64,000 nucleotides of DNA from the human T2T-CHM13v2.0 reference genome, Homo sapiens: NCBI RefSeq assembly GCF_009914755.1, contig NC_060946.1; one strand, written 5' to 3'. Below are positions 16,043 to 59,818 of this stretch, one piece after another. The notes beneath the pieces are model-generated. The model saw only the letters and a list, made by a program, of their open reading frames with translations, was not told where the DNA came from and did no database searches. Each line of letters opens with the position of its first letter. Within the stretch, counting starts at the first letter, position 1. The position numbers were made by a program, and so were the translations under genes.

Positions 16043-16189
16043 ATGGGGACCTGTGGAGTGACACCCCTTTGTCAAGATGCCAGGGCTGCCTGGCTGCCCC
16101 ATTCCCTGCCCTCTCCGCCCACCCCAGCATGGCTCCTGGAACAGCGTGGGTGGCGCAAAAGAGAGGCTCCCCATGTGCAGAGAAGCAAG
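16043..16189 (+). CDS. Candidate alternative first coding exon (49 aa, MGTCGVTPLCQ...HVQRSK), phase-0 donor
   Basis: Optimal Kozak GCTGCCATGG, open frame, AAG|gtatgt donor; G-rich tract at 15907-15928 upstream; no homology evidence. Confidence 0.25.
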
Positions 16190-16825
16190 GTATGTGAGAA
16201 CAGACCTCCAGCTGGGTCAGGAGAAAGCACTCCTGTGTGGAGGCGTGCTCTGCAAGTGGAGACCATTCCTCACAGCAGCTATGAGATGAGAGAGAGGTGG
16301 GGGCTGCACAGCTGAGTGATGGAAATGACGGGGGTGGGGCGTGGTACCACTGTTGCCTTGCCCAGAGAGTGGAAGCTGTTGAGCACAGGCCTCCAAGTCA
16401 GACTTTGCCACTAAGCCGCTGCACAATCTCCAGCCTTCACTCTCTGCCTCAGTTTTCTTCTCTGCACAGTGGGGATGCTTGTTTTGTTCCCATGAGTTGG
16501 TCAGAGCATATGTTACCACCACTGGTAAGAAGGGTACCGTTTTTCTCCCCTTTTAAAGGCAGAGAAGGTGAGGCTCAGAGAAGGTAAGCTACTTGCCCAG
16601 GATCACATAGCAAGGAGCTGGAGGGCCAGGCAGTCAGACTTTGGAGCCCTGCCCTAAACCGTGCTTGTGAGGATGACATGAGATGATGTGGGGCCTGGCA
16701 CACACAATATGTCCTGTCAGCTCTTAGGAAACATGTACCCTATCGGAGCAGCCTTTGGATGAGTGTTGATTTAGCCTGGGGAAGGGGGGCATTTCTCTTT
16801 ATAAGTTTGTCTTTCAAAATGTGGG

Positions 16826-17096
16826 TTTTTTTGTTTTTTTTTTTTTTTTTTTTTTTTAGATAGAGTCTCGCTCAGTCACCTAGGTTGGAGTGCAGTGGTG
16901 CAACCTTGGCTCACTGCAACCTCTGCCTCCCGGGTTCACAGGTGTGCGCCACCATACCTGGCTAATTTTTGTATTTTTAGTAGAGATGGGGTTTCACCAT
17001 GTTGGTCAGGCTGGTCTCGAACTCCTGACCTCATGATCCACCCGCCTCGGCCTCCCGAAGTACTGGTATTACAGGTGTGAGCCACCGCACCTGGCC
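16826..17096 (-). mobile_element. AluS with ~40-bp internal deletion
   Basis: cgggttca joined directly to caggtgtgcgcc. Confidence 0.9.
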
Positions 17097-19722
17097 AAAT
17101 ATGGGTACTTAAGCCACACTCGTTCCAATGGTGGGATTCCAATGGGGCAGTCCCCATTGGAATATCCATGCCTGTTGCTGGGGGCCTCCTGTGTGCTCTT
17201 GGCTTGCACTGATACCTGGGAGGTAGGTGTCATGATTTCCATCTGCAAAAGGAGGCAGCTGAGGCAGGAGAAGGTGGTGCAAGGGCCCCAGGCCATACAG
17301 TATTTGTAACTGGGTCTGGTGGCCTTGCAGAGGAAGGTGGAGGATTTTGAGTTGGTCTTTCCTGTGGTCTTCCTGGGTAACCCCCTTGGGGAATCACGTC
17401 CCAGAGAGGAGGGGAGCATTGCCTGGGGCCCCACAGTGGTGTGGGGCAGAGCCTGGCTCTTCCTCTCCATTCAGCCTGGGCAGGAGGGCATGGAAAATGC
17501 CCTCTGAGGCCACCCAGACCTGCTGGTCACTGGAGCTGTCGATGTGGTTGAGTTTTCGTCAGAACTGAGTATGGGAGGGGGTCCCCAAAGCCATGTTGGT
17601 GAACCTTGTGTTTTTCACCATCAGGCTTCAGTTGGGGTTCACAACCAATCTAAGTGTGAGTGGGAGAAAGCCAAATGGAGTGGAAGGGAGGAGGAACACA
17701 GGGCAAGGTCTTCCCTCCTATGACCACATCTTCTGTACCCCATAATCCAGCTGACACAAATGGGGGTATTCACAGGGGCAGGGTAGCCCGGTGGTTAAGG
17801 GCCCAGGCTTTGAGTTCCACCCAGCCGTGGGTTGTGTCACAGCTCTGCACATAGCAGATGCATGACTTGGACTAGTGATGTCATTGTCCAGAGCCTCTGT
17901 TGTCCCATCTGTACAATGGAGATTACAGCCTTCCTGGGTTATACCTGTCAACGAGGCAGTAGGGCGCACAGTAGGCCCTTGGTGAATGACAGCTACTGTG
18001 AGTTGAGACTATGCTTACTACAAACCCCAAGTAAAATAGTTGCACAGGCTAGGGATTGGGTCTTTGGCTTCCCTGCTATAGTACCTGGTTCATAGTAGAC
18101 ACTCAAGAAAGTGCCTGTTGAAGTCAGAAGGATGGGAGGGAGGAAGCAAGGAAAGAAGGCCAGAAAGGCCTTCTCATTTTTTCAATCTTTTATGATACTC
18201 ATGGAGACCTTTATAATCTCGGAGTGTTGCTTAGAGGGCAGTTCAGCCAAGTAAAGCAAACTCACTGGTCAGAAATACATTGCTTAGGGGAGGTCATGTG
18301 TTCCTTATCCCATTTCTCATTTGTTGTTTCCCAAGAACATCTTGCTTTGTTTTGCTAACCGAGCCAACAGTATGGAACTTCAGTCGCTGTGGTGGAAAGA
18401 AACGTGTTGTCCAGCCCCAGGCAGTGTGGCCAAAGATACCAGCAGAGCTCCCCTCCTCTTTCCCAGGGTCTGATTGCCCCCAGAACCACCGGGTGGCCCA
18501 GGGAGATAAGTCAGGCAGGGGAATTAGGTGGGGGCCTGCCGCCTGCCTTTTTCCATTTTAGAGAAGGCCAGGGTTTGCAGCCTTGTAAGAGGCCTGGCTC
18601 TTGGAAGAGGGGCTGTAATTACAGATTGGCTTTGCCATGCCAGGCAGGGCCACATGGCAGACTCTCCACAGCATGGAAAACGCTGCTTTCTACTTGAGCT
18701 GAGGGTGGGGCCTGATAAAGAAAGGTGATGAGTTTCTGTCTGTTTCTAGAAAGATTTCCTTGCTAGATGATTTTTATTGATTGATTGATTGATTGATTGC
18801 TCATCCCAAGGTTAAAGACATCTTAGGTCACTAAAATGACTATTTGAAGAAGAATGTGATAAATTAACACAAGGAAATAATCTTGGGCTTGGTTTATAAA
18901 TAATCTGGGATTGACTTGTAAAATCAAGTCATTTCTATTTTTTTTTCTTTTATCTGAATTCCTTTCCCTGTTGCCTTGGAAACAAGTCTCCCAAGAAGGA
19001 TGTTTGGAGTCCTGTGACTTGGGTTCAAGCCTCAGTGATTCCTTCATCTCACACAGTGGGTACGATGAGAGCCTCTTCAGGATGTTGAGTGTCAAGGGTG
19101 GACAGGACACGTCCCTGCCGCCCACAGGCTCGGGACCTGGAGGGGAAGACTGATGGGTAAACCAAATTATGGCCAGGTAAACTGTGTGATTCGGTAGGGG
19201 TTACATAGGCAGAGTGGGACCCCAGAGGTGCCCCCTGCCCCCATGGATATAAGGAAACGGGAGGTGTCTCAGAGGCGGGAGTATCTAAGCTGAGCTGTGG
19301 TGGACTAGATGCTGGCCAGGTGAGGAAGGGGTGGAAAGGTGTCTTAGCCAGAGGGAACAGCATATGCAAAAGGCTGAACCAGAGATGTCATGGCACATTC
19401 CAGGATTAACATCTGTCCAGTTTGTTCAGGGTAGAAAGAAGCTGGGAAACAGGTAATATGTGAGGTTGCAGACGCTGTCAAAGTTCAGATCATGCACATT
19501 TCCTAGGAGATATCAGAGAGGGCGCCTGCTGCAGATGGACTGTGAGGCCTTAGGGCAGCCCTCGGTCTGGGCCTGTTTCTTCAGTTTAGTGGGAAGGTTG
19601 GCCTAGGTTGGTCCCTGCTGGTGTCTTGATTCTGACTGTCTAGGGTCCTGTGATTCATTTGAACAGTGAGATGATAGGAATTATAATAGAAAAACGATCA
19701 TCCCTTGTGGTCACCATTTATT

Positions 19723-20026
19723 ATTTTGTTGTTGTTGTTGTTTTGAGACAGAGTCTTGTTCTGTCGCCCAGGCTGGAGTGCAGTGGTGCCATCTCCGCTC
19801 ACTGCAACCTCCACCTCCCGGGTTCAAGAGATGCTCCTGCCTCAGGCTCCCAAGTAGCTGGGACTACAGGTGCACACCACCATGCCTGGCTAATTTTTGT
19901 ATTTTTAGTTGAGATGGGGTTTCACCATGTTGGTCAGGCTGGTATCGAACTCCTGGCCTCAAGTGATCCACCTGCCTCAGCCTCCCAAAGTGCTGGGATT
20001 AGAGGTGTAAGCCACTGCGCCCGGCC
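19723..20026 (-). mobile_element. AluS with (GTT)n tail
   Basis: Reverse Alu. Confidence 0.95.
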
Positions 20027-58496: not shown

Positions 58497-58808
58497 TGTT
58501 TTTGTTTTTGTTTTTTGTTTTTTTTTGAGACAGAGTCTCACTCTGTCGCCCAGGCTGGAGTGCAGTGGCATAATCTCGGCTCACTGAAAGCTCTGCCTCC
58601 TGGGTTCACGCCATTCTCCTGCCTCAGCCTCCTGAGTAGCTGGGACTACAGGCGCCTGCCACCACACCTGGCTAATTTTTTGTATTTTTAGTAGAGACGG
58701 GGTTTCACCGTGTTAGCCAGGATGGTCTCAATCTCCTGACCTCGTGATCCGCCTGCCTCGGCCTCCCAAAGTGCTGGGATTACAGGTGTGAGCCACCACA
58801 CCCTGCCC
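58497..58808 (-). mobile_element. AluY-like
   Basis: Reverse Alu. Confidence 0.95.
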
Positions 58809-59484
58809 ATTTTTTTCTTTGTAAATTTTTATTAATATATGTATCTTTATATCTAGATCTATATTTATATTTTATAGTGAAAAATGTATAACTTCTGTAA
58901 TCAGGGGAAAAAACCCTAATCACCAGGGTTTGGGAGTGACATATCTCTTTTCTAACTACCCTCCCCTACCTTCTGGGAACAGCCAATCCAGGCCTACGCA
59001 TGTCCCCACCTTTTATTTAAAGAGGTGATGCATCACGGGATTTTCCTTTCCCAGCCTGCTGAAGCCGAGGTCCAGAGGTTCTGACTTAGACCACAAGTTC
59101 ACGAGCCTGTCTGGCATCTTCCAAAGTGTGGCATTCAGTAGATGTGATTTGGAACCCTGGCTCGGTGATGTGTTAGCTCCGTGACCTTGGTCAAGCTCCT
59201 ATGTCTGTCCATGTCTCAAGTTTCCCAGTCTTTAATGATAATGCTATATAACCTTTACCTTACAGGGAAAATGAGGAGAGATGGGATGGGGTGAATCCCT
59301 GGGAAGCACCTTATAAGCCATGAGACACCACCAAAATGGTTGCTTGTTCAAGATTAAGAATTCATGAGCTGCCAGTTTCCCCATCAGGCACTTCTGCAGC
59401 AGGCCCTTAACCTCTGCAATCCCTGCAATTCCACACTAGCATCCTAGGGGTTGGGGGCACTGTGTACTTTAGCGGCAGCCTCTG

Positions 59485-59497
59485 GTTGCCTAGCAAC
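59485..59497. promoter_or_regulatory. RFX X-box with adjacent ETS-like site
   Basis: GTTGCCTAGCAAC followed by AGGAAAT. Confidence 0.65.
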
Positions 59498-59662
59498 AGG
59501 AAATCCATCCTGGTTGATACTCTTAATTCGTGGGAATGTTCTGCCCACTGAGATGGCGCTGATACTCAGTTACACGAGAAGGGGAAAATCAGCAGTCTGC
59601 ACAACTTGCCCACAAGTTGCCGAATCCGATCCCTTCTCAGAGTCCTCTCAGCCATAAATAAG

Positions 59663-59818
59663 ATGCTGGAGGCCACAGTAGAGTCACAGCTCTGGCTCTT
59701 CCCCAACAATTCCATGGTCACCAGGATTTCTTGGCACCATCCCCCTGCACTGGTTCCAGCTGCCATCTTCGCCAGAGGGTCTGGTTTGAAATGCTTTTTT
59801 GGGTCCACAGGGGCTGAG
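59663..59818 (+). CDS. Candidate alternative first coding exon (52 aa, MLEATVESQLWLF...GSTGAE), phase-0 donor
   Basis: AAGATG Kozak, open frame, consensus GAG|gtgagt donor, X-box ~170 bp upstream. Confidence 0.3.

What the first reader, a model, noticed from the sequence alone, without database searches (positions are those of the whole stretch)
16043..59818. Possible battery of phase-0 variable first exons giving one shared C-terminus different targeting N-termini
Seen: at least five + strand segments in repeat-free islands start at ATG, stay open, and end at a GT donor exactly on a codon boundary. They are 16043-16189 (MGTCG.., AAG|gtatgt), 23001-23063 (hydrophobic, TTG|gtgagg), 28893-28901 (MGQ, CAG|gtgagc), 29460-29744 (basic/aromatic, ATT|gtaagc) and 59663-59818 (GAG|gtgagt), with a weaker one at 54579-54656. 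No constitutive internal coding exon is visible in 64 kb. Established: plectin, UGT1A and clustered protocadherins use arrays of same-phase first exons spliced to common exons. Inference: this intron holds such a cassette, making short isoforms (probably of KIAA1671, identity from recall) with lipidation, membrane-anchor or electrostatic N-termini under separate promoters. Caveat: an ATG followed by a phase-0 GT can arise by chance, and I searched for them; only 29460 is strong by itself.
Basis: partly seen in the sequence, partly recalled or inferred. Interest (0 to 1): 0.8.

Follow-up and report, generated by a model that had tools for sequence, protein, structure and literature searches.

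The report
KIAA1671 internal first exons, mostly chance
Only one of the six proposed start exons in this human KIAA1671 intron is a real, deeply conserved coding exon, and it is already annotated; one more is an annotated but probably non-coding leader, and the other four look like chance.

Summary
All six segments exist exactly as described: ATG, open frame, length a multiple of three, GT next. The pattern is not rarer than chance. At comparable donor strength the + strand has 39/30/42 such ORF-plus-GT cases in phase 0/1/2.

The window lies wholly inside a 121,417-bp phase-0 intron of KIAA1671, from window -33336 to 88080.

- **29460-29744:** a genuine coding first exon. Its 95 aa head ~390-aa KIAA1671 short isoforms from primates to shark and teleosts. 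It is more conserved than the shared C-terminus in 54 of 54 comparisons. Its junction to 88081 was RT-PCR-validated in print.
- **Exon ending at 28901:** annotated, but its MGQ start is not conserved.
- **16043, 23001, 54579, 59663:** no support of any kind.
- **New point:** a second conserved coding first exon (MEYYYCPSLLKLLRYLW, 17 aa) lies outside the window at -12336.

So there are two conserved alternative N-termini plus the long form, not a battery of five or more. This is known in gene annotation but apparently unstudied in print.

The parts
29460..29744 (+). Coding part of the alternative first exon: 95 aa (MDYLGDK...EPPDI), donor ATT|GTAAGC, phase 0. It is the N-terminus of the 391-aa KIAA1671 short isoform. 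Its partners lie OUTSIDE the window. (a) The shared exon at 88081-88199 has the phase-0 acceptor; five further exons follow, to the stop at 107976. (b) The long-isoform exon before the intron ends at -33337. (c) A second conserved coding first exon is at -12336..-12286 (MEYYYCPSLLKLLRYLW, TGG|GTGAGT).
   Evidence: translation; 100 proteins at E<=0.001, from primates to shark, coelacanth and teleosts, nearly all ~390 aa with PF15327; spliced in frame to 88081; shared part is 296 aa. PF15327 at residues 213-382; identity to P0003 is 0.83 against 0.69 for the shared part, higher in 54 of 54 rows; 27 of 34 invariant columns lie here; published RT-PCR primers sit at 29680-29701 and 88110-88129; the outside 17-aa exon occurs in 39 of 146 models, human has an intact copy, and 8 of 17 residues are invariant in 26 sequences.
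28426..29744 (+). RefSeq first exon that carries the 95-aa ORF behind a 1034-nt leader.
   Evidence: Hub annotation table; seven upstream ATGs lie before 29460 (28534, 28666, 28773, 28893, 29262, 29286, 29364). GC 0.59-0.65 and CpG o/e 0.36-0.60 upstream of the three ATGs in this exon (28773, 28893, 29460), above the four unannotated candidates (0.17-0.29); no strict CpG island.
27421..28901 (+). RefSeq alternative first exon ending at donor CAG|GTGAGC (28901). It is most likely a non-coding leader. MGQ (28893-28901) is its fourth ATG counted from 28426, and it follows the in-frame ATG at 28773.
   Evidence: Hub table; donor score 7.1, ATG census; pig fragment P0110 reads through the equivalent exon into the shared exon but has CVGQ, with a frame change upstream; the only database hit to the 43-aa ORF is an unspliced read-through (P0158) with TCRGS.
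29469..29705 (-). KIAA1671-AS1 lncRNA exon, antisense and wholly inside the 95-aa coding exon.
   Evidence: Hub table. Sequence shows AC at 29467-29468 and CT at 29706-29707, which are GT and AG on the - strand. PMC5132003 supplement reports reads on both strands, 13:33.
16043..16189 (+). Chance ATG/open frame/GT coincidence (the ORF really starts at 16013).
   Evidence: donor score 5.5, in-frame ATG at 16013; out-of-frame ATG at 16033 in a better context. CpG o/e 0.17; no Pfam family; not among the better matches (E<1) of any of 19 atypical N-termini. Not in the hub's RefSeq exons.
23001..23063 (+). Chance ATG/open frame/GT coincidence (21 codons).
   Evidence: donor score 3.5; context aactggATGA, CpG o/e 0.29; not among the better matches (E<1). 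Not in the hub's RefSeq exons.
54579..54656 (+). Chance ATG/open frame/GT coincidence with a very weak donor (GTG|GTAACA).
   Evidence: donor score 0.06; 75 phase-0 cases on the + strand reach that level at >=60 nt. CpG o/e 0.20.
59663..59818 (+). Chance ATG/open frame/GT coincidence with a strong donor (GAG|GTGAGT).
   Evidence: donor score 7.4; at >=7 the + strand has 2/1/4 cases in phase 0/1/2. Pfam only a sub-threshold COPR5 match, E 0.049; not among the better matches (E<1). CpG o/e 0.27. Not in the hub's RefSeq exons.

Best explanation
The window is the middle of a 121-kb phase-0 intron of human KIAA1671.

About 28.4-29.7 kb into the window lies an internal promoter region. Its transcripts end their first exon at one of two donors, 28901 or 29744. 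The 29744 donor is shown to be spliced to the next constitutive exon at 88081; for 28901 the partner is inferred from a pig protein model. Only the 29460-29744 ORF is a real coding first exon. It supplies a 95-aa N-terminus to the last 296 aa of KIAA1671. That shared part holds the whole Tankyrase_bdg_C domain and the stretch likened in print to the CAPZA2-binding region of TNKS1BP1. The product is a 391-aa short isoform.

The 28901 exon is most likely an untranslated leader. A second conserved coding first exon of 17 aa sits 12.3 kb upstream of the window. The segments at 16043, 23001, 54579 and 59663 are chance coincidences of ATG, open frame and GT.

Inferred mechanism (not tested): the gene works like dystrophin or plectin (analogy recalled). 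Intronic promoters swap the large disordered N-terminal 1510 aa for a short targeting head. The 95-aa head has a weakly amphipathic N-terminal stretch followed by an Arg/Ser/Phe cluster with basophilic-kinase sites (KRTS, RRFS, RFSS). That cluster could act as a phosphorylation-reversible electrostatic anchor.
For: Shown:
- Exon and intron geometry and phases.
- The 95-aa peptide finds 100 proteins at E<=0.001, named in the listing from Pan to Scyliorhinus, Latimeria, Gadus and Astyanax, almost all ~390 aa with PF15327.
- A full phmmer pass over 1.84 billion representatives finds 58 hits. Of the 9 I scanned, 8 carry PF15327.
- Exon-1 identity exceeds shared-part identity in 54 of 54 rows, and 27 of 34 invariant columns lie in exon 1.
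- The published 'CTA-221G9.11-KIAA1671' junction (22 split reads, RT-PCR positive in VCaP and LNCaP) uses primers that map to 29680-29701 (+) and 88110-88129 (-). [quoted passage not shown]
- The hub's RefSeq table lists only exons 27421-28901 and 28426-29744 in the window, across 9 transcripts.
- Chance level of the pattern.
- Of 146 related short proteins, 89 carry the MDY-type head, 39 the MEYYY head, 4 a bird/tuatara head, and 14 are other (13 fragments or singletons, plus one partial model, P0120, that starts at the shared exon). No atypical head maps to the four candidates.
- The MGQ ATG is absent in both other mammals seen.

Inferred: the charge and motif content as a targeting switch. 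The position of the CAPZA2-like stretch (aa 1617-1711 of 1806; PMC10092648, passages) inside the shared 296 aa is by arithmetic.
Against: - No RNA, CAGE, Ribo-seq or multi-species DNA data were available, so the absence of the four candidates rests on annotation, protein databases and statistics only.
- Clustering of the protein database at 90% identity could hide rare human isoforms.
- A weak donor is no argument against a candidate: the true 29744 donor scores only 1.7 on my matrix.
- The + strand has somewhat more ORF-plus-GT cases than the - strand or the simulations, in all phases. I did not explain this.
- Seven upstream ATGs in the RefSeq leader make efficient translation from that exact transcript model doubtful, so the true start site may lie closer to 29460.
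- The mechanism of the 95-aa head is untested.
Confidence: 0.85

Rival explanations
1. The larger battery is real. At least one of 16043-16189, 23001-23063, 54579-54656 or 59663-59818 is a genuine, perhaps tissue-restricted or primate-specific, first exon spliced to 88081.
For: All four are in phase with the real phase-0 acceptor. They are single copy. Donors 16189 and 59818 score well, 5.5 and 7.4. Lineage-specific first exons do occur in this intron: a colugo model maps to -6309..-6154, where human has a stop. A RefSeq enhancer, 16184-16703, abuts the 16189 donor (hub table).
Against: The pattern is expected by chance tens of times per strand, with no phase-0 excess. None is in the 9 RefSeq transcripts (hub table). 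None of 146 related proteins carries such a head. CpG o/e is 0.17-0.29. 16043 is preceded by an in-frame ATG at 16013 and by an out-of-frame ATG at 16033 in a better context. The enhancer lies downstream of that ATG, not upstream.
Confidence: 0.07
2. The exon ending at 28901 is coding in human and gives a third short protein. This would be MGQ plus 296 aa (299 aa), or 43 aa from ATG 28773 plus 296 aa (339 aa).
For: It is an annotated exon with a strong donor in phase 0 (hub table). Both ATGs are open to the donor. A pig protein model joins the equivalent exon to the shared exon.
Against: The MGQ ATG is GTG in pig and Arg in P0158, and the upstream frame shifts between human and pig. No database protein carries the 43-aa head spliced to the shared part. 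Both ATGs have a pyrimidine at -3. 28773 precedes MGQ in frame, so Gly2 would not be exposed. MGQDQLK does not fit the recalled PROSITE myristoylation pattern.
Confidence: 0.2
3. The conservation of 29460-29744 reflects a DNA or RNA regulatory element (enhancer, or the antisense lncRNA exon), not a translated N-terminus.
For: RefSeq enhancers cover 27930-29653, and KIAA1671-AS1 exon 29469-29705 overlaps the ORF (hub table). The RefSeq leader has seven upstream ATGs.
Against: The frame stays open, with amino-acid-level conservation from shark and teleosts to human and no frame breaks in 55 aligned proteins. Substitutions are conservative and 27 residues are invariant. The ORF is always joined in frame to PF15327.
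Confidence: 0.03

Closest known systems
Annotated KIAA1671 short isoforms ('isoform X2/X3', 'Tankyrase 1-binding protein C-terminal domain-containing protein', ~390 aa) in RefSeq, UniProt and Ensembl of many vertebrates
   Same: The human 29460-29744 ORF is 99% identical to the first 95 aa of the Pan paniscus isoform X2. The human exons reproduce the 296 shared residues at 99% identity.
   Different: Nothing. This is the same thing, so the exon is already known to annotation. I found no paper that studies the short isoform (searches; only listings and some passages were read).
Dystrophin internal promoters (Dp260, Dp140, Dp116, Dp71) and plectin alternative first exons (recalled, not tested here)
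   Same: Unrelated short first coding exons, driven from within introns or upstream, are spliced in frame to common downstream exons. One C-terminal module therefore gets different N-terminal heads.
   Different: Only two conserved coding heads plus the long form are seen here, against four internal dystrophin promoters and about a dozen plectin first exons. No data exist on isoform-specific targeting for KIAA1671.
UGT1A and clustered protocadherin variable-exon arrays
   Same: Several 5' exons share one set of constant exons.
   Different: Those variable exons are tandem paralogues that each encode a whole domain. Here the exons show no similarity to each other and encode only 17 and 95 aa.
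MARCKS effector domain and similar basic/aromatic phospho-switches (recalled)
   Same: A dense cluster of basic residues interleaved with Phe and phosphorylatable Ser. Residues 46-90 have net charge +11, 5 Phe, 15 Ser/Thr, and RRxS/KRxS sites.
   Different: It is Arg-rich rather than Lys-rich, has no N-myristoylation, and shows no sequence homology (Pfam: nothing above threshold). Membrane or actin binding is untested.

Membership tests
KIAA1671 short isoform (95-aa head + Tankyrase_bdg_C) | N-terminal 95 aa homologous to the heads of the ~390-aa orthologues | tested here: met
   100 hits, best 1.1e-51, 99% identity; 58 representatives.
KIAA1671 short isoform (95-aa head + Tankyrase_bdg_C) | In-frame splice to exons encoding PF15327 | tested here: met
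   ATT|GT ... AG|GAC, phase 0, 296 aa to the stop. PF15327 at E 1.8e-70, residues 213-382.
KIAA1671 short isoform (95-aa head + Tankyrase_bdg_C) | The junction exists in human RNA | tested here: met
   Literature only: PMC5132003 table and supplements. The primers map to 29680-29701 and 88110-88129. The reported breakpoints are 58,357 bp apart, against 58,337 here, in a different assembly.
Variable first-exon array of the UGT1A / clustered protocadherin type | Tandem paralogous variable exons | tested here: not met
   no significant protein or DNA similarity among the seven candidate exons.
Variable first-exon array of the UGT1A / clustered protocadherin type | Every variable exon spliced to the same constant exon | tested here: inconclusive
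   Shown for 29744 (paper). Inferred from protein models for 28901 (pig) and -12286 (39 models). No evidence for the other four.
Alternative-promoter N-terminal isoforms (dystrophin/plectin type) | Unrelated first exons, each with its own ATG, in frame with a common exon | tested here: met
   29460-29744 and -12336..-12286 both end in phase 0 and join 88081.
Alternative-promoter N-terminal isoforms (dystrophin/plectin type) | A separate promoter for each first exon | not testable with these tools
   Only RefSeq start sites 27421 and 28426 from the hub table, and modest CpG enrichment. No CAGE data.
Alternative-promoter N-terminal isoforms (dystrophin/plectin type) | Heads confer different localisation or partners | not tested
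   Composition only.
N-myristoylated N-terminus (claimed for MGQ and MGTCG) | Met-Gly start that is the first AUG used, with a small residue at the fifth position counted from the Gly (PROSITE PS00008, recalled) | tested here: not met
   In-frame upstream ATGs at 28773 and 16013. The fifth position counted from the Gly is Leu in GQDQLK and Val in GTCGVT. The MGQ ATG is not conserved.

The most novel reading that the evidence does not exclude
The short isoforms, not the 1806-aa protein studied so far, may be the ancient functional core of KIAA1671.

- The 95-aa head is the most conserved part of the gene across jawed vertebrates.
- It may act as a phosphorylation-controlled electrostatic anchor.
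- Together with the amniote-wide 17-aa Cys-containing head (MEYYYCP...) and the long disordered form, it would give a three-way N-terminal targeting code for one capping-protein/tankyrase-binding-type C-terminal module.
- An antisense lncRNA exon lies inside the coding exon and could be a possible regulator.

I found none of this in print.
Probability: 0.3. Interest if true: 0.45.

Novelty: already known. Interest (0 to 1): 0.22.

Why it matters
KIAA1671 has only one functional study that I found. It deals with the 1806-aa form at sites of microvillus growth (PMC10092648, passages). Antibodies, knock-outs and tagged constructs aimed at the long form may miss or confound two conserved short products that keep the whole Tankyrase_bdg_C domain and the CAPZA2-binding-like stretch. 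Knowing that the 95-aa head is the best-conserved part of the gene gives a concrete target for isoform-specific experiments.

As a scan result, it shows that same-phase 'ATG to GT' segments found by eye in a long intron are mostly noise. The true second exon was missed because it lay outside the window.

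Tried and rejected
- **Pfam on the six peptides:** nothing above threshold. Only chance-level Orthopox_A47 (E 0.093) and COPR5 (E 0.049) matches.
- **Protein Atlas:** closed for this sequence.
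- **Solved structures:** a profile of 55 short isoforms found no match at E<=0.01.
- **Rfam on the window:** only an Alu seen as Metazoa_SRP.
- **Tandem repeats, 27000-30500:** none.
- **Regex search for the MEYYYCP head in window 1..116000:** no + strand hit. It was then found upstream with a degenerate pattern. That pattern also gave one other exact match and 18 one-mismatch matches elsewhere in the genome, at about the control rate (20 against 15).
- **The 43-aa ORF 28773-28901:** found no spliced protein.
- **CpG-island scan of the whole intron:** one borderline 300-bp stretch at -14236..-13937 and none in the window by my thresholds. I therefore dropped my early label 'CpG-island promoter'.
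- **UGT1A/protocadherin-type paralogous array:** rejected.
- **Two papers mentioning KIAA1671 splicing:** uninformative. PMC6111597 Table II lists it under 'AP' events; PMC12652946 Table 1 lists it among ASD genes.
- **First submission of this report:** Parts outside the window were not accepted, so they are now described inside the first part and in the text.

Full report
**Observation**

The six segments are in the sequence as described. Each begins with ATG, is open, has a length divisible by three, and is followed directly by GT. The donor contexts are:

| Segment end | Donor context |
|---|---|
| 16189 | AAG\|GTATGT |
| 23063 | TTG\|GTGAGG |
| 28901 | CAG\|GTGAGC |
| 29744 | ATT\|GTAAGC |
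| 54656 | GTG\|GTAACA |
| 59818 | GAG\|GTGAGT |

Two details were missed. The frame ending at 16189 opens at an ATG at 16013. The frame ending at 28901 opens at an ATG at 28773. The four unannotated segments are single copy in the genome at the sensitivity of the own-genome search.

**Is it more than chance?**

No. I scored donors with a 5' splice-site frequency matrix recalled from memory. I then counted every GT that is preceded by an ATG-initiated open frame.

| Criteria | + strand, phase 0/1/2 | - strand, phase 0/1/2 |
|---|---|---|
| Score >=3 | 39/30/42 | 26/26/29 |
| Score >=3.5 and >=60 nt | 16/9/16 | 5/9/12 |
| Score >=0 and >=60 nt | 75/66/83 | 51/60/66 |

- At score >=3.5 and >=60 nt, sixty first-order Markov simulations gave 10.7 +/- 3.3 cases in phase 0. 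Three of the 60 reached 16.
It therefore belongs with the 75 phase-0 cases of the last row.
- Phase 0 is never enriched over phase 2.
- The + strand has more cases than the - strand and the simulations in all phases. I did not explain this, but it is not specific to phase 0.
- The true 29744 donor scores only 1.7. Donor strength on this matrix therefore cannot exclude a candidate either.

**Where the window lies**

The own genome is held. I fetched the flanks and mapped related proteins on them.

- The long-isoform exon before the window ends at window -33337 (...GPFV|GTGAGT).
- The next exon begins at 88081 (ttgcag|GAC).
- Both boundaries fall between codons.
- The intron is therefore 121,417 bp and phase 0, and the window lies wholly inside it.
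- Six exons follow: 88081-88199, 91501-91750, 94609-94783, 98910-99034, 102154-102296 and 107898-107976. Together they encode 296 aa, 99% identical to the corresponding part of a Pan paniscus protein.
- They include the complete Tankyrase_bdg_C domain (PF15327, E 1.8e-70).

**The real exon in the window: 29460-29744**

- *Homologues.* The 95-aa peptide found 100 proteins at E<=0.001 among 174 candidates. Almost all are ~390 aa with PF15327. They are named KIAA1671 isoform X2/X3 or 'Tankyrase 1-binding protein C-terminal domain-containing protein'. The species range from primates through marsupials, a monotreme, birds, crocodilians, turtles, squamates and amphibians to Latimeria, Scyliorhinus, Gadus and Astyanax.
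- *Wider search.* A filter-free phmmer pass over 1.84 billion representatives found 58 hits. Of nine that I scanned with Pfam, eight carry PF15327. The ninth is an unrelated low-scoring protein.
- *Conservation.* In an alignment of 55 short isoforms, the exon-1 part is 83% identical to the reference on average, against 69% for the shared part. It is the higher of the two in 54 of 54 rows. It holds 27 of the 34 invariant columns. This is protein-level purifying selection.
- *RNA evidence in print.* The InFusion paper (PMC5132003; passages and supplement passages read) reports a 'CTA-221G9.11-KIAA1671' chimera with 22 split reads. [quoted passage not shown] Its two primers map exactly to window 29680-29701 (+) and 88110-88129 (-), inside the 95-aa exon and the first shared exon. 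The reported breakpoints are 58,357 bp apart, against 58,337 here. The assemblies differ, and I could not lift over the coordinates.

**The exon ending at 28901**

It is in RefSeq (hub table) and has a strong donor in phase 0. However, MGQ is the fourth ATG counted from the 28426 start and is preceded in frame by the ATG at 28773.

A pig protein fragment reads through the equivalent exon into the shared exon. It has CVGQ in place of CMGQ, and the frame shifts relative to human further upstream. The only database hit to the 43-aa ORF is an unspliced read-through from an unnamed mammal contig, which has TCRGS.

I read this exon as a leader. There is a 0.2 chance that human translates it.

**The other four segments**

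Nothing supports them.

- The hub's RefSeq table lists no other exon in the window for any of the 9 transcripts.
- Among 146 proteins that share the C-terminus, 89 have the MDY-type head, 39 the MEYYY head and 4 a bird/tuatara head (MT[YF]S...). The remaining 14 are 13 long-form fragments or singletons, plus one partial model (P0120) that begins at the shared exon. These 146 came from the 157 proteins held at that point; the shared-part search listed its best 120 of 172.
- I mapped 19 atypical heads on the whole intron. None landed on 16013-16189, 23001-23063, 54579-54656 or 59663-59818.
- CpG o/e upstream of them is 0.17-0.29. It is 0.58-0.60 before 28773 and 28893, and 0.57 before the MEYYY exon.
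- 16043 also follows an out-of-frame ATG at 16033 that sits in a better context.
- The RefSeq enhancer 16184-16703 lies downstream of that ATG.

I had no RNA-seq, CAGE or genome alignments, so this is absence of support, not proof of absence. I put 0.07 on at least one of the four being real.

A second head, MEYYYCPSLLKLLRYLW, is joined to the same shared exon in 39 models from placentals, marsupials, birds and turtles. Eight of its 17 residues are invariant in 26 aligned sequences.

The human genome has an intact copy at chr22:25531664-25531714, which is window -12336..-12286. Its start context is ggaaATGG and its donor is TGG|GTGAGT, in phase 0. It would give a 313-aa protein.

So the idea of several same-phase first exons on one C-terminus is right in kind. 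The true set is two conserved coding heads plus the long form, and only one of the heads is in the window.

**How it probably works (inference)**

Intronic promoters replace the first 1510 aa of the 1806-aa protein with a short head. The length is from PMC10092648 (passages).

By arithmetic the shared part is residues 1511-1806. It therefore contains aa 1617-1711, which that paper aligns with the CAPZA2-binding region of TNKS1BP1.

The 95-aa head has a weakly amphipathic stretch (hydrophobic moment up to 0.54 around residues 13-39). This is followed by residues 46-90, with net charge +11, 13 R/K, 15 S/T, 5 F, and KRTS, RRFS and RFSS sites. This composition recalls basic/aromatic phospho-switches such as the MARCKS effector domain. 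That comparison is recalled: there is no homology, and binding is untested. No structure prediction could be run.

**Comparison and novelty**

- The exons are unrelated to each other. The UGT1A/protocadherin array model therefore fails on a defining feature.
- The arrangement works like dystrophin's internal promoters or plectin's first exons (recalled), on a smaller scale.
- The 95-aa exon and its isoform are already annotated in many species and in human RefSeq.
- Literature searches: KIAA1671 (133 papers, 25 listed); KIAA1671 plus 'alternative promoter' (1 paper); KIAA1671 plus 'isoform' (31 papers, 20 listed); 2900026A02Rik (19 papers, 15 listed); KIAA1671-AS1 (7 papers).
- In the listings and passages I read, no paper studies the short isoforms. 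I did not read all the papers.

**Verdict**

The real feature is already known to annotation.

Noticed in passing
outside the window: window -12336..-12286 (L009:1501-1551): An intact human copy of a 17-aa coding first exon (MEYYYCPSLLKLLRYLW, donor TGG|GTGAGT, phase 0). It is conserved in placentals, marsupials, birds and turtles and joined to the same shared exon.
   Followed up: yes
window 29469-29705, - strand: The KIAA1671-AS1 exon lies wholly inside the conserved 95-aa coding exon on the opposite strand, with proper GT/AG on the - strand. The InFusion supplement reports reads on both strands (13:33). A sense/antisense relation at the short-isoform exon is possible.
   Followed up: partly
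window 27263-27410 (+): The only Rfam hit in the window is Metazoa_SRP at 72.4 bits, i.e. an Alu (masked 27084-27452). KIAA1671-AS1 exon 27284-27401 lies inside it, an exonised Alu. The RefSeq start 27421 abuts it.
   Followed up: partly
protein P0181 (unnamed source, 1523 aa), residues 1196-1275: In one long, probably fish, protein model the 95-aa module is internal. It starts at LYLGDK without the Met, after a very long E/R/Q-rich repetitive region, and is followed by PF15327. In some lineages the exon may therefore be used as an internal exon of a long form, or the model may be merged.
   Followed up: partly
outside the window: window -6309..-6154: The first exon of a Cynocephalus volans isoform X3 model maps here at 58% identity, but human has no Met and has an in-frame stop. 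This is an example of a lineage-specific or spurious first exon in the same intron.
   Followed up: partly
window 29330-29347: A T-rich tract followed by AG (ttttttttcctccaag) lies about 115 nt upstream of the 29460 ATG. A pig protein fragment (P0114) starts aligning at 29342 after 7 unrelated residues. This hints that the 95-aa exon can also be entered through an acceptor here, as a second exon.
   Followed up: no
whole window, both strands: ATG-open-frame-GT cases are more frequent on the + strand than on the - strand (224 against 177 at score >=0 and >=60 nt). They are also more frequent than in first-order Markov simulations, in all three phases. This is possibly transcription-linked strand composition.
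   Followed up: no
proteins P0143, P0152, P0155, P0156 (tuatara and birds): A third short head of 13 aa (MTYSLWAALIRRI-like) is joined to the shared exon in some birds and Sphenodon. A regex search of window 1..116000 found no human counterpart; the 33 kb of intron upstream of the window were not searched with it.
   Followed up: partly
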